A stretch of DNA of 64,000 nucleotides, taken from NCBI RefSeq assembly GCF_009914755.1, contig NC_060941.1; one strand, given 5' to 3'. Position 1 is the first letter of the stretch. Every line of letters starts with the position of its first letter. This document shows, in pieces, positions 4,073 to 39,265 of this stretch. The DNA is from the human T2T-CHM13v2.0 reference genome, Homo sapiens. Made by a program: the position numbers and the translations under genes. The notes beneath the pieces are model-generated. The model ran no database searches, had not been told where the DNA came from, and saw nothing but the letters and a program-made list of their open reading frames with translations.

Positions 4073-4953
4073 GAGACAGAGTCTCGCTGTCTCCCAGGCT
4101 GGAGTGCAGTGGCGCGATCTTGGCTTACTGCAAGCTCCGCCCCCTGGGTTCACGCCATTCTCCCGCCTCAGCCTCCTGAGTAGCTGGGACTACAGGCGCC
4201 CACCACCACCGGCCGGCTAATTTTTTGTATTTTCGGTACAGATGGGGTTTCACTGTGTTAGCCAGGATAGTCTCGACCTCCTGACCTCGTGATCCGCCCG
4301 CCTCAGCCTCACAGTGCTGGGATTACAGGCGTGAGCCACTGCGCTGGCCTAATAATAGTGGTGGTGTTTTTTTTTGTTTGTTTGTTTGTTTGTTTGTTTT
4401 TTTGAGACAGAAAATCTTGCTCTTTCACCAGGCTGGAGTGCAGTGAGGCGATCTCGGCTCACTGAAAACTTCTGCCTCTTGGGTTCAAGCGATTCTCCTG
4501 CCTCAGCCTTCCAAGTAGATAGGACTACAGGCACACACCACCACACCCAGCTAATTTTTTTTGTATTTTTAGTAGAGACAGGGGTTTCACCGTATTGGAC
4601 AGGATGGTCTTGATCTCTTGACCTCGTGATCCACCCGCCTCAGCCTCCCAAAGTGTTGGGATTACAGGCGTGAGCCACCCGCCTGGCCAGTAATTATTTT
4701 TGTAGAGATGGAGTCTCACTACATTGTCCAGACTGGTCTTGAACTTTTGGCCTCAAGCCATCCTGCTGCCTCAGCCTCCCAAGTAGCTGGGATTACAGGC
4801 GCCCGTCACTGCGCCTGCCTAGTTTTTGTATTTTTGATAGAGACGGAGTTTCACCATCTTCGCCAGGCTGGTCTCAAACTCCTGACCTCGTGATCTACCT
4901 GCCTCAGCCTCCCAACGTCCTGGGATTACAGGCATGAGCTACTGTGCCTGGCC
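4045..4953 (-). mobile_element. Tandem antisense Alu cluster: AluY (4045-4349), AluS (4367-4688), chimeric AluS/AluJ (4695-4953)
   Basis: Three consecutive antisense Alu bodies; the first two are preceded by T-rich tails. Confidence 0.85.
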
Positions 4954-35137: not shown

Positions 35138-35335
35138 AGTGTGTGCCATGGTCCACATTCCCAATTCTTTATGTTGAACCTAGGTGATTCGCCAAGTTTA
35201 TTCTGTTCTTTCTGGGGCCATCCCAAAATCCTTAAGGAGGCTATGGCAACTCTGTCCCAGTGTCTTACAGGCCCACCAGCCAAGATATCTGAAAACACAT
35301 ACAGATAAAAAGTTTGCTTAAAAAAAATCAGTTAC

Positions 35336-35560
35336 GGCCTCTTCCCGGCCACCATCCCATCTAGGAAGTGAGGAGCGTCTCTGCCCGGCCACCCATCGTC
35401 TGAGATGTGGGGAGCGCCTCTGCCCCGCCGCCCCGTCTGGGATGTGAGGAGCGCTTCGGCCCGGCCGCGACCCCGTCTGGGAGGTGAGGAGCGTCTCTGC
35501 CCGGCCGCCCCGTCTGAGAAGTGAGGAGACCCTCCACCTGGCAACTGCCCCATCTGAGAA
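35336..35560 (+). mobile_element. SVA VNTR fragment from a second SVA, part of the 5' transduction
   Basis: Colinear with 36198-36422 of the main SVA but ~15 mismatches in 225 nt. Confidence 0.9.
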
Positions 35561-35889
35561 CGGCATTCCAGATTTTTCTGCAGTCCAGAATAGAGCACCA
35601 CCACCATAGCATTTCAAGCTCATTCTAAGTTCATCTTATCAATGACAAGAGGAGACACGTTGTTCATTCATGTATGAGGTAGTACTTTCCAATTGAAGAC
35701 ATTGCTTTGAAAGAGACTGCCAAATTGGTTTCATTGAGAAGGAATGAAAGAAGCTAAAAGGCTTTCACCTGAGATTTGACAATAGCCAGAAAACCTCTGT
35801 TAATAATGAATGTTTCCCTATCTGCAAAGTGAAGATATGTTTCAATGCTTCAACGCATAGGAAGTCTGTAGAACAGTGCAAAGAATATA
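35561..35889 (+). other. Captured unique sequence inside the SVA insertion (5' transduction)
   Basis: Non-repeat-looking DNA lying inside the insertion TSDs. Confidence 0.8.
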
Positions 35890-35957
35890 CAGGCATACCT
35901 TGAAGATATTACAGTTTTGGTTCCAGACCATCATAAAAAGGTGGATATTGCAATAAG
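35890..35957 (-). mobile_element. Tigger1 terminal fragment, part of the 5' transduction
   Basis: ta|caggcatacc..gatatt..ggttccagacca..gatattgcaataa matches the Tigger1 end. Confidence 0.75.
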
Positions 35958-37689
35958 GCTGGAGTGCAGTGGCGTGATCTCGGCTCGCACAACCTCCACC
36001 TCCCAGCCGCCTGCCTTGGCCCCCCAAAGTGCCGAGATTGCAGCCTCTGCCCGGCCGCCACCCCGTCTGGGAAGTGAGGAGCGTCTCTGCCTAGCCGCCC
36101 ATCGTCTGGGATGTGAGGAGCCCCTCTGCCTGGCTGCCCAGTCTGGAAAATGAGGAGCGTCTCTGCCCGGCCGCCATCCCATATAGGAAGTGAGGAGGGC
36201 CTCTTCCCGACAGCCATCCCATCTAGGAAGTGAGGAGCGTCTCTGCCCGGCCGCCCATCGTCTGAGATGTGGGTAGCACCTCTGCCCCGCCACCCCGTCC
36301 GGGATGTGAGGAGCGCCTCTACCCGGCCGCGACCCTGTCTGGGAGGTGAGGAGCGTCTCTGCCCGGCCGCCCCGTCTGAGAAGTGAGGAGACCCTCCGCC
36401 TGACAACCGCCCCGTCTGAGAAGTGAGGAGCCCCTCCACCCGGCAGCCTCCCCGTCAGAGAAGTGAGGAGCCCCTCCGCCCGGCAGCCACCCCGTCTGGG
36501 AAGTGAGGAGCGTCTCCGCCCGGCAGCCACCCCGTCCGGGAGGGAGGTGGGGGGGTCAGCCAGCCGCCCCGTCCAGGAGGGAGGTGGGCGGGTCAGCCCC
36601 CTGCCCGGCCGGCCGACCCGTCCAGGAGGGAAGTGGGGGGGTCAGCCCCCCGCCCGGCCAGCCGCCCCGTCCGGGAGGTGAGGGGCGCCTCTGCCCGGCC
36701 GCCCCTACTGGGAAGTGAGGAGCTCCTCTGCCCGGCCAGCCGCCCCGTCCGGGAGGGAGGTGGGGGGGTCAGCCCCCCGCCCGGCCAGCCGCCCCGTCCG
36801 GGAGGGAGGTGGGGGGGTCAGCCCCCCGCCTGGCCAGCCTCCCCGTCCGGGAGGTGAGGGGCGCCTCTGCCTGGCCGCCCCTACTGGGAAGTGAGGAGCC
36901 CCTCTGCCCGGCCAGCCCCCCCGTCCGGGAGGGAGGTGGGGGGGTCAGCTCCCCGCCCGGCCAGCCGCCCCGTCCGGGAGGGAGGTGGGGGGGTCAGCCC
37001 CCCGCCCGGCCAGCCGCCCCGTCCGGGAGGGAGGTGGGGGGGTCAGCCCCCCGCCTGGCCAGCCTCCCCATCCGGGAGGTGAGGGGCGCCTCTGCCTGGC
37101 CGCCCCTACTGGGAAGTGAGGAGCCCCTCTGCCCGGCCGCCACCCCGTCTGGGAGGTGTGCCCAGCAGCTCATTGAGAACGGGCCATGATGACAATGGCG
37201 GTTTTGTGGAACGGAAAGTGGGGAAAGGTGGGGAAAAGACTGAGAGGTTGGATGGTTGCCGTGTCTGTGTAGAAAGAGGTAGACATGGGAGACTTCTCAT
37301 TTTGTTCTGTACTAAGAAAAATTATTCTGCCTTGGGATCCTGTTGATCTGTGACCTTACCCCCAACCCTGTGCTCTCTGAAACATGTGCTGTGTCCACTC
37401 AGGGTTAAATGGATTAAGGGCGGTGCAAGATGTGCTTTGTTAAACAGATGCTTGAAGGCAGCATGCTCGTTAAAAGTCATCACCACTCCCTAATCTCAAG
37501 TACCCCGGGACACAAACACTGCGGAAGGCCGCAGGGTCCTCTGCCTAGGAAAACCAGAGACCTTTGTTCACTTGTTTATCTGCTGACCTTCCCTCCACTA
37601 TTGTCCTATGACCCTGCCAAATCCCCCTCTGCGAGAAACACCCAAGAATGATCAATAAAAAAAAATAAAAAAGAAAAAAAAAAAAAAAA
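35958..37689 (+). mobile_element. SVA retrotransposon (C/D-like) lacking hexamer and 5' Alu-like region
   Basis: Distal Alu-like region, GC-rich VNTR (~36045-37150), SINE-R, AATAAA 37654-37659, poly(A). Confidence 0.97.
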
Positions 37690-37783
37690 GAAACTATCCA
37701 ATCCTCAGCCTGCTCGGCTGCTTACTCTGTTTCACCCATGCCTTCTGTGAAAACAACAGTAAAGGTTTTGCCCAGGGAAAAAA
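37690..37783 (+). other. 3' transduction with second poly(A)
   Basis: ~88 nt after the SVA poly(A), AGTAAA 37758-37763, A run from 37778, then TSD 37784-37799. Confidence 0.85.
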
Positions 37784-37799
37784 AAAAAAAATCAGTTAC

Positions 37800-38659
<860 letters not shown>

Positions 38660-38704
38660 TCAGTTAAGTATAGATATATTTCAAAATTCAAAAAGTACAG
38701 AAGG

Positions 38705-39265
<561 letters not shown>

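What the first reader, a model, noticed from the sequence alone, without database searches (positions are those of the whole stretch)
35320..37799. Doubly transducing composite SVA: one TPRT event carrying five different sequence modules
Seen: identical 16-mer aaaaaaaatcagttac at 35320-35335 and 37784-37799, preceded by TT (L1 endonuclease TT|AAAA site). Between them, in order: SVA VNTR piece, ~330 bp unique DNA, Tigger1 end, SVA body, poly(A), ~88 bp extra DNA, second poly(A). Established: SVAs are mobilised by L1 ORF2p and can carry 5' and 3' transductions. Inference: the whole 2.45 kb is the cDNA of one chimeric RNA made elsewhere, although a repeat annotator would split it into unrelated hits. 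It may mark an SVA lineage with its own 5' module, analogous to the MAST2 exon of SVA_F1.
Basis: partly seen in the sequence, partly recalled or inferred. Interest (0 to 1): 0.88.

Follow-up and report, generated by a model that had tools for sequence, protein, structure and literature searches.

The report
Spliced two-SVA chimeric retrocopy
This is one retrotransposed copy of a spliced RNA that ran from one SVA element through two chromosome-5 exons into a second SVA, a well-documented example of a known process (exon trapping) and not the start of a new SVA family.

Summary
An exact 16-bp target-site duplication at 35320-35335 and 37784-37799 brackets a 2,448-bp insert at an L1-endonuclease-type site.

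The insert is the cDNA of a spliced chimeric RNA:
- 225 nt of an SVA VNTR, ending exactly at a VNTR GT donor.
- Two chr5 exons (252 + 145 nt, intron removed, canonical AG/GT at the source).
- A second, unrelated SVA entered at an AG acceptor in its Alu-like region.
- Poly(A), 87 nt of chr13 sequence, then a second poly(A).

An SVA lies 2.3 kb upstream of the exons on chr5. The second SVA belongs to a lineage with the same chr13 3' transduction (two full-length siblings).

The 5' and 3' extras come from different chromosomes, so they were acquired in different generations. The parent locus, an SVA of the chr13 lineage downstream of the chr5 exons, is absent from this assembly.

No other copy of the 5' module exists in this genome, so it founded no lineage here. 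The acceptor is 49 nt upstream of the SVA_F1/MAST2 one.

The mechanism is already known (exon trapping, 3' transduction, VNTR donors). This is a new member of a known kind, of moderate to low interest.

The parts
35318..35319 (+). TT immediately 5' of the TSD; together with the A-run it forms the L1 endonuclease-type target (bottom strand TTTT/AA)
35320..35335 (+). Left target-site duplication, 16 bp. It is also the original 5' TSD of the neighbouring Alu.
35336..35560 (+). 225-nt SVA VNTR piece (SVA#1). It ends at ...tctgagaa, where every related SVA continues with gtgagg (a GT donor). The first base, G at 35336, is unmatched in all 5 relatives aligned.
35561..35812 (+). Captured exon A, 252 nt, 100% identical to chr5:77463136-77463387 (minus strand). 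At the source it is flanked by ...acacag| and |gtaagt.
35813..35957 (+). Captured exon B, 145 nt, 1 mismatch to chr5:77461605-77461749 (minus strand). At the source it is flanked by ...cttcag| and |gtgagt.
35958..36043 (+). Last 86 nt of the Alu-like region of SVA#2, starting right after the ...gtgcccag| acceptor of canonical SVAs. The hexamer and the rest of the Alu-like region are missing.
36044..37158 (+). VNTR of SVA#2 (about 1.1 kb)
37159..37654 (+). SINE-R of SVA#2: 99.0% and 98.4% identical to the two chr13-transduction siblings, 92.1% to the chr5:77.466 Mb SVA
37655..37689 (+). First poly(A) (A-rich tail of SVA#2, after AATAAA at 37654/37664)
37690..37776 (+). 87-nt 3' transduction, 100% identical to chr13:44993456-44993542, with an AGTAAA signal at 37758. 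The G at 37777 is not matched by chr13.
37778..37783 (+). Second poly(A): 6 A outside the TSD, up to 14 A if the A-run of the TSD is counted
37784..37799 (+). Right target-site duplication, 16 bp

Best explanation
The 2,448 bp between the TSDs are one L1-mediated (target-primed reverse transcription) insertion of a processed, chimeric RNA.

Transcription began in, or passed through, a full-length SVA at chr5:77.4657-77.4677 Mb (minus strand). A GT donor inside its VNTR was spliced over a 3.5-kb intron, which removed that SVA's own 3' half and poly(A) signal. The splice joined a non-coding exon 2.3 kb downstream of the SVA (exon A). Exon A was spliced to exon B over a 1,385-nt intron. Exon B's donor, which lies in an exonised old repeat, was then spliced into an AG acceptor in the Alu-like region of a second SVA.

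That second SVA belongs to a different subfamily. It already carried a 3' transduction from chr13:44.99 Mb, inherited from an earlier retrotransposition. The RNA was polyadenylated after an AGTAAA inside that transduction and was inserted on chr17 at a TT|AAAA site that an Alu had used before.

Shown here: the TSD, the endonuclease-type site, the three splice-site junctions, the two source loci, and the sibling lineage.

Inferred: the second SVA sat downstream of exon B in the same chr5 transcription unit, on an allele that is absent from this assembly (polymorphic or lost). Also inferred: the chr5 SVA, and not a near-identical relative, supplied the VNTR piece.
For: Insertion hallmarks: the TSD is exact and non-random, TT precedes it, and a poly(A) sits against the right TSD.

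The 5' module: window 35561-35957 maps to two chr5 blocks 1,385 nt apart, at 100% and 99% identity. At the source both blocks have ag| in front and |gt behind.

The upstream SVA: a full-length SVA with its own TSD lies upstream on the same strand. Its VNTR reads ...catctgagaa|gtgagg exactly where the window switches to exon A. The VNTR piece matches that SVA with 5 mismatches in 222. It shows 13-18 mismatches against the element's own VNTR and against the siblings.

The acceptor: canonical SVAs read ...gtgcccag|gctggagtgcag at the point where SVA#2 starts.

SVA#2 lineage: the SINE-R is 98.4-99.0% identical to two full-length SVAs carrying a 200-nt version of the same chr13 sequence, and 92.1% identical to the chr5 SVA. 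On chr13 that sequence is contiguous with its flanks.

Independent use of the acceptor: an SVA at chr8:0.77 Mb is joined at the same acceptor to two spliced chr17:7.79 Mb exons, and it has two further copies.

Literature (passages read): human SVA VNTRs contain functional splice donors (PMC7353768). Splicing of upstream exons into SVA followed by retrotransposition is an established class (PMC4859970; PMC6139936). Published cases likewise infer a parent SVA that is absent from the reference (PMC12593883 supplement, Figs S8, S9).
Against: No SVA with the chr13 transduction lies near chr5:77.46 Mb in this assembly. All 8 of 8 candidates were scored, and the only chr5 copy is 3.3 Mb away on the other strand. 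No SVA at all was found in the 10 kb downstream of exon B. The cis parent locus is therefore hypothetical.

The VNTR piece is not diagnostic. An SVA on chr8:134.88 Mb matches it better (3 mismatches in 224) and one on chr17:45.09 Mb matches equally well. Only 40 of 2,421 candidates were scored.

The first ~16 nt of the piece are of a VNTR unit type that the assembly's chr5 allele lacks at that position.

A search of one catalogue of 543 non-reference SVAs found none in the hg38 interval I guessed for the parent site. This is weak evidence, because the interval rests on a recalled coordinate.

Presence or absence in other humans and in apes could not be tested.
Confidence: 0.8

Rival explanations
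1. Trans-splicing. The chr5 transcript (SVA#1 VNTR, exon A, exon B) was joined in trans to the Alu-like acceptor of an SVA RNA transcribed from another chromosome (the chr13 source or one of its offspring). The product was then retrotransposed.
For: No locus in this assembly holds both the chr5 exons and an SVA with the chr13 transduction (8 of 8 candidates scored). The junction still uses a canonical donor and acceptor.
Against: Trans-splicing is rare in human cells (established knowledge, not tested here). The chr13 source SVA itself is also missing from this assembly, which shows that relevant source elements can be absent. That makes a missing cis parent the simpler reading. Published analogous cases are explained by polymorphic parent SVAs.
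Confidence: 0.08
2. Template switching by the L1 reverse transcriptase during one TPRT event. Reverse transcription would run from an SVA RNA onto a separate spliced chr5 RNA, as proposed in print for SVA-CKS1BP.
For: Template switching between an SVA RNA and an mRNA has been proposed for another SVA chimera (PMC12593883, passages). It needs no shared parent locus.
Against: The switch would have to leave the SVA template exactly after an AG and land exactly on the last base before a GT donor of exon B. The same Alu-like position is joined to spliced exons in an independent SVA group. There is no microhomology, poly(A) or truncation signature at the junction.
Confidence: 0.05
3. One reading: a founder or member of an SVA lineage with its own 5' module, comparable to SVA_F1 with the MAST2 exon.
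For: The architecture is analogous: foreign exon sequence replaces the hexamer and most of the Alu-like region. Such lineages exist in human (F1) and chimpanzee (STK40) (PMC6139936, abstract and passages).
Against: The genome search with the 5' module returned only this copy and its two chr5 source exons. The remaining 37 of 40 scored hits cover only the repeat-derived last ~80 nt, at 79-93% identity. The element lacks the hexamer, which deletion experiments show to matter for mobilisation (PMC7353768, passage). Non-reference copies in other people were not testable.
Confidence: 0.05
4. Nested or stepwise origin: an SVA inserted first, and the 5' module arrived later by a second insertion, recombination or gene conversion.
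For: Repeat annotation would show separate pieces. The site is a re-used target.
Against: There is only one TSD pair. The 5' module has no poly(A) of its own and no flanking TSD. Its junction with the SVA is base-exact at splice sites.
Confidence: 0.02

Closest known systems
Exon-trapping / spliced 5' transduction SVAs (Hancks 2009 and Damert 2009, both not held here and known to me only through citing papers; examples MRPS18A-SVA, and LINC02916 and UQCRC1 5' transductions in PMC12593883)
   Same: Upstream exons with their introns removed are joined to an AG in the SVA Alu-like region. The chimera is then retrotransposed by L1 with a TSD and poly(A). In several published cases the parent SVA is also missing from the reference.
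   Different: Here the 5'-most module is itself a piece of another SVA, joined through a VNTR-internal donor. The acceptor is 49 nt upstream of the F1/MRPS18A one.
SVA_F1 (MAST2 exon 1 spliced to SVA_F) and chimpanzee pt_SVA_D6 (STK40 exon 1)
   Same: The hexamer and most of the Alu-like region are replaced by spliced foreign exon sequence.
   Different: F1 uses the AG/CC junction (window equivalent 36006/36007), carries a GC-rich first exon with promoter activity, and has at least 84 reference copies. This element uses the AG/GC junction at 35957/35958, carries AT-rich internal non-coding exons (GC 0.37-0.38), and is single-copy.
Concatenated SVA_D-L1M5-SVA_F group from chr14 (PMC12593883, supplementary Fig. 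S6)
   Same: Sequence of two different SVAs is mobilised as one unit inside one TSD pair.
   Different: That group arose by read-through of contiguous genomic DNA. Here the two SVAs are joined by splicing, with introns and SVA#1's 3' half removed.
SVA 3'-transduction groups
   Same: SVA, poly(A), unique flanking DNA, then poly(A). The transduction is shared among siblings and traceable to one locus.
   Different: This copy uses an earlier AGTAAA site (87 nt against 200 nt in the siblings). The source SVA is absent at chr13 in this assembly.

Membership tests
L1-mediated (TPRT) retrotransposon insertion | Target-site duplication flanking the insert | tested here: met
   Exact 16-mer at both ends; 0 of 100 shuffles gave 3 matches
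L1-mediated (TPRT) retrotransposon insertion | Endonuclease-type target (TT|AAAA) and a 3' poly(A) abutting the TSD | tested here: met
   ...gctt|aaaaaaaa at the left end; an A-run at 37778-37791 at the right end
L1-mediated (TPRT) retrotransposon insertion | Empty (pre-integration) allele in an outgroup or another haplotype | not testable with these tools
Canonical SVA element | 5' CCCTCT hexamer repeat and complete Alu-like region | tested here: not met
   The element starts with a VNTR piece and exons. Only the last 86 nt of the Alu-like region are present. The siblings have both features.
Canonical SVA element | VNTR, SINE-R, AATAAA and poly(A) | tested here: met
Spliced 5' transduction (exon trapping) SVA | The 5' foreign sequence equals genomic exons with introns removed, and has canonical AG/GT at the source | tested here: met
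   two chr5 blocks, a 1,385-nt intron, and ag|...|gt at both
Spliced 5' transduction (exon trapping) SVA | The junction with the SVA lies directly after an AG in the Alu-like region | tested here: met
   Canonical copies read ...gtgcccag|gctggagtgcag. The same junction is used by the chr8:0.77 Mb SVA group.
Spliced 5' transduction (exon trapping) SVA | A parent SVA lies downstream of the trapped exons at the source locus | tested here: not met
   No chr13-transduction SVA lies near chr5:77.46 Mb, and there is no SVA in the 10 kb downstream. This holds for this assembly only.
SVA_F1 | MAST2 exon 1 at the 5' end | tested here: not met
   The 5' module maps to chr5:77.46 Mb only. It is AT-rich and unlike the F1 5' end printed in the supplement of PMC12593883.
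SVA_F1 | Splice junction AG/CC in the Alu-like region | tested here: not met
   The F1 SVA part begins at the ccgcctgcc... motif, which is window 36007. This element's SVA part begins at 35958.
5'-transduction group (lineage sharing one 5' module) | Two or more insertions sharing the same 5' module | tested here: not met
   One search found only this copy plus the source exons. Non-reference human insertions were not searchable.
chr13 3'-transduction lineage | The 3' flank after the first poly(A) is identical to a unique locus and shared with other SVAs | tested here: met
   87 of 87 nt identical to chr13. Two siblings carry 200 nt of the same sequence at 98.5% and 99.0%.
chr13 3'-transduction lineage | Source SVA present immediately upstream of the transduced sequence | tested here: not met
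   On chr13 the sequence is contiguous with unique upstream DNA and there is no SVA within 1.5 kb. This is read as an empty allele in this assembly.

The most novel reading that the evidence does not exclude
The chimera is a fossil of germline trans-splicing. An RNA started in the chr5 SVA and spliced through two exons. It was then joined in trans to the Alu-like acceptor of an SVA RNA from another chromosome, and L1 copied the product. The absence of any locus in this complete assembly that holds both partners is what keeps this reading open. A milder novel reading is that SVA-to-SVA cis-splicing is a general way for one SVA to supply the promoter and 5' end that mobilises another. The unmatched 5' G at 35336 hints at a capped RNA that started inside the VNTR.
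Probability: 0.08. Interest if true: 0.7.

Novelty: new member of a known kind. Interest (0 to 1): 0.35.

Why it matters
The locus is a clean, fully resolvable record of several known SVA behaviours acting together:
- A VNTR-internal splice donor was used in vivo.
- Two exons were trapped through a second Alu-like acceptor that is distinct from the SVA_F1 one.
- A 3' transduction was inherited, with alternative polyadenylation.
- An L1 target site was re-used.

It also shows that two source elements in its pedigree, the chr13 source and the chr5 parent, are missing from a complete human assembly. That matters to anyone who traces SVA source elements from reference genomes.

Locally, the insert supplies the whole terminal exon of the annotated lncRNA MIR2117HG.

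It does not change how SVA mobilisation is understood.

Tried and rejected
SVA_F1 acceptor by pattern search. A search for non-canonical prefixes before the Alu-like 28-mer could not find F1. My filter would also have rejected a GC-rich exon end, and the F1 junction lies elsewhere. [quoted passage not shown] The question was settled from an F1 sequence and the 'AG/CC' statement in the supplement of PMC12593883.

Mosaic body. I checked whether the four clustered private changes at 37212-37240 came from the chr5 SVA. None of 10 relatives carries them, so this was rejected and the patch is unexplained.

Source of the VNTR piece by identity alone. Rejected as a criterion after one search showed equally good or better matches elsewhere.

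Naming the chr5 transcription unit. I obtained only an anchor: CRF-BP domain exons at chr5:77.4359-77.4377 Mb on the + strand. The two exons have 6-11 stops per frame and are taken as non-coding.

Literature. The 2009 catalogues (Damert; Hancks) are not held, so I could not check whether this reference element is already listed there. Full-text searches for MIR2117HG/MIR2117 and for SVA + CRHBP + transduction gave nothing on this element.

Catalogue look-up. No non-reference SVA was found in my guessed hg38 interval. The interval rests on a recalled coordinate.

SVA subfamily names were not assigned, because no consensus library was available.
Full report
OBSERVATION. The window (T2T-CHM13 chr17:44,268,001-44,332,000 according to the hub) contains the exact 16-mer at 35320-35335 and 37784-37799. 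A search allowing one mismatch gave three matches against 0.01 expected, and none of 100 shuffles reached three. TT precedes the left copy, and an A-run abuts the right copy. On the bottom strand this is the TTTT/AA-type L1 endonuclease site, with the poly(A) at the primed end. The insert between the TSDs is 2,448 bp.

ANATOMY, 5' TO 3'.

(1) 35336-35560 is 225 nt of SVA VNTR.

(2) 35561-35957 matched the window's own genome in two blocks on the minus strand of chr5: 77,463,136-77,463,387 (100%) and 77,461,605-77,461,750 (99%, overlapping by one ambiguous base). The other 37 of 40 scored hits (251 candidates) covered only the last ~80 nt at 79-93% identity, so that part is an old dispersed repeat. 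At the chr5 source the first block is preceded by ...acacag and followed by gtaagt. The second is preceded by ...cttcag and followed by gtgagt. These are therefore two internal exons, joined with their 1,385-nt intron removed. Every reading frame has 6-11 stops, so I take them as non-coding.

(3) 35958 onwards is an SVA that begins at gctggagtgcag. Full-length SVAs read ...gtgcccag immediately before this motif, so the junction sits directly after an AG acceptor. VNTR, SINE-R, AATAAA and an A-rich tail follow (to 37689).

(4) 37690-37776 is 87 nt, 100% identical to chr13:44,993,456-44,993,542. It has AGTAAA at 37758 and is followed by the terminal A-run.

THE FIRST JUNCTION. About 2.3 kb upstream of exon A, on the same strand, chr5 carries a full-length SVA (about 77,465,655-77,467,678). 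It has hexamers, a poly(A) and its own TSD. Its VNTR reads ...catctgagaa|gtgagg at 77,466,887, exactly where the window switches from VNTR to exon A. So all three internal junctions (VNTR/exon A, exon A/exon B, exon B/SVA) lie on a GT donor and an AG acceptor. Splicing from the VNTR donor to exon A removes 3,499 nt, including that SVA's SINE-R and poly(A) signal. Functional donors in human SVA VNTRs are documented experimentally: three donor sites were spliced to a reporter acceptor (PMC7353768, passages).

TWO DIFFERENT SVAs. The 5' VNTR piece matches the chr5 SVA with 5 mismatches in 222. It shows 13-18 mismatches against the element's own VNTR and against the siblings. The SINE-R shows the opposite pattern: 99.0% and 98.4% to the siblings, and 92.1% to the chr5 SVA. 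The closest SINE-R genome-wide is an SVA at chr3:132.1 Mb (99%), among 40 of 2,220 candidates scored.

CAVEATS ON THE VNTR PIECE. Among 40 of 2,421 candidates scored, an SVA at chr8:134.88 Mb matches slightly better (3 mismatches in 224) and one at chr17:45.09 Mb matches equally well.

Column by column, using 5 relatives aligned without gaps:
- Positions 35391 and 35455 are private to the window copy.
- Position 35377 is private to the chr5 copy.
- Positions 35338, 35343 and 35351 reflect a VNTR unit type that the assembly's chr5 allele lacks at that place.

Two further relatives of different length were dropped from the display, and my row for the element's own VNTR was out of register and should be ignored.

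The assignment to the chr5 SVA therefore rests on synteny with exon A and the exact donor, not on identity. It requires a one-unit VNTR difference between the transcribed allele and the assembly's allele. The first base (G at 35336) is unmatched in all five relatives. An untemplated 5' G is a known mark of reverse transcription to the cap (PMC4859970, passage), so the RNA may have started inside the VNTR. This is speculation.

THE 3' TRANSDUCTION LINEAGE. All 8 of 8 candidates were scored. They comprise this copy, chr13:44.99 Mb, chr5:80.79 Mb and chr10:94.85 Mb at 99-100%, and four old-repeat hits at 75-84%. The chr5:80.79 and chr10 copies are full-length SVAs with hexamers, each with its own TSD. 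They carry 200 nt of the chr13 sequence (98.5% and 99.0%), ending after AATAAA. On chr13 the sequence is contiguous with unique DNA on both sides and has no SVA in front. I read this as an empty allele of a source SVA that is missing from this assembly. The window copy used the earlier AGTAAA site.

CONSEQUENCE. The 5' module comes from chr5:77.46 Mb and the 3' module from chr13, so they cannot be the two flanks of one source locus. The simplest history has three steps:
- The chr13 source SVA produced an offspring carrying the transduction.
- That offspring landed downstream of exon B on chr5, in the sense orientation.
- A chimeric spliced RNA from that locus was inserted on chr17.

That parent is not in this assembly. 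No transduction copy lies near chr5:77.46 Mb, and no SVA lies in the 10 kb downstream of exon B. The same inference, a polymorphic parent SVA absent from the reference, is made in print for MRPS18A-SVA and the UQCRC1 transduction (PMC12593883 supplement, Figs S8, S9). Trans-splicing and reverse-transcriptase template switching remain possible. Both are less parsimonious, because all junctions are base-exact at splice sites.

IS THE ACCEPTOR A REAL, RE-USED ONE? I searched the genome for the 28-mer that follows the acceptor, preceded by a non-canonical 5-mer. There were 53 hits. I inspected 51: 30 loci, 20, and the window's own. The hits at C22:36,946,166 and C23:144,368,135 were not inspected.

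- Forty-six were ordinary Alus, or Alu-like downstream.
- Two were SVAs joined to foreign sequence: this element and chr8:0.77 Mb (L060).
- Three were SVAs with an internal Alu-like deletion ending at the same AG (L044, L066, L086). My script mislabelled L086 as Alu-like; its sequence is SVA.

The 200 nt upstream of the L060 junction map to two blocks at chr17:7,790,497-595 and 7,788,563-664, again a spliced pair. Two further copies exist at chr10:69.15 Mb and chr6:132.0 Mb at 96%. This acceptor has therefore trapped exons at least twice independently.

COMPARISON WITH SVA_F1. An F1 insertion printed in the supplement of PMC12593883 has its SVA part starting at the ccgcctgcc... motif. The same supplement gives the MAST2/SVA junction as 'AG/CC' (Fig. 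S2). In the window that position is 36006/36007, which is 49 nt downstream of the junction used here (35957/35958). So this is a different acceptor. The module is AT-rich internal exons and not a GC-rich first exon, and there are no sister copies. The F1 analogy holds for mechanism only.

AGE. There is 1 mismatch in 397 nt of exons and 0 in 87 nt of transduction. There are two private changes in the VNTR piece. There are no private changes in the SINE-R outside one 29-bp patch. This indicates a young insertion, on the order of a million years, with a very wide error. Whether it is human-specific could not be tested. An annotated RefSeq transcript includes the VNTR/exon A junction, which suggests the insertion is not private to this genome (inference from the hub's table).

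VERDICT. It is wrong about a one-locus double transduction and about a lineage. Every mechanistic component is already in print:
- Exon trapping by SVA (PMC4859970, PMC6139936, PMC12593883).
- VNTR donors (PMC7353768).
- 3' transduction groups.
- Two-SVA concatenates by read-through (PMC12593883, Fig. S6).

What I did not find in the papers I could read is a chimera in which one SVA's VNTR donor is spliced through exons into another SVA. The two 2009 catalogues of reference SVAs were not available to me, so I cannot say this element is unreported. I file it as a new member of a known kind, interest 0.35.

Noticed in passing
window 37800-38667: An old Alu starts at 37800 and ends in an A-rich tail at about 38651. 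It is flanked by the 16-mer at 37784-37799 and a 1-mismatch copy at 38652-38667, which are its own TSDs. The SVA composite therefore hit the same TT|AAAA site and duplicated exactly the Alu's 5' TSD, so this is target-site re-use.
   Followed up: partly
window 37856-38380: The Alu is split by an insert of about 525 bp that has TATAAA near its start and AATAAA near its end (solo-LTR-like). I did not identify it. The RefSeq enhancer feature 38311-38810 overlaps its end.
   Followed up: no
window 35365-35665: The annotated terminal exon of the lncRNA MIR2117HG lies entirely inside the inserted 5' module. It starts after an AG inside the VNTR piece (...catctag|gaagtgagg) and ends 105 nt into the chr5-derived exon A. 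The retrocopy supplied this exon.
   Followed up: partly
window 37212-37240: Four substitutions (37212, 37213, 37219, 37240) are clustered in 29 bp at the start of the SINE-R. They are private to this copy and absent from all 10 relatives checked from both SVA lineages. The rest of the 511 bp has no private change. The patch is unexplained; possibilities are a conversion tract, a reverse-transcription error patch, or an unsampled donor.
   Followed up: partly
L060 (chr8:764867-767899); also chr10:69148296-69148495 and chr6:131996635-131996834: This is a three-copy SVA group. Its 5' end consists of two spliced blocks from chr17:7,790,497-595 and 7,788,563-664, joined at the same Alu-like acceptor as the window element. 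It is an independent exon-trapping lineage.
   Followed up: partly
L044 (chr1:44.99 Mb), L066 (chr10:9.28 Mb), L086 (chr16:93.79 Mb): These three SVAs have an internal deletion of the Alu-like region (...ctgactggttttt joined to gctggagtgcag) ending at the same AG acceptor. This may be an internally spliced SVA variant that has retrotransposed.
   Followed up: no
L023 about 2509-2550 (chr10:94.85 Mb sibling): About 24 nt of non-SVA sequence lies between this sibling's 5' TSD and its hexamer repeat. It is not the chr13 upstream flank, which hints at a short 5' transduction from yet another intermediate locus.
   Followed up: no
L024 about 4440-4470 (chr13:44,993,456): The source site of the 3' transduction has no SVA in this assembly. 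The sequence runs ...cctatttatt|gaaactatcc, a plausible L1 endonuclease site. The lineage's source element is therefore absent from a complete human genome.
   Followed up: partly
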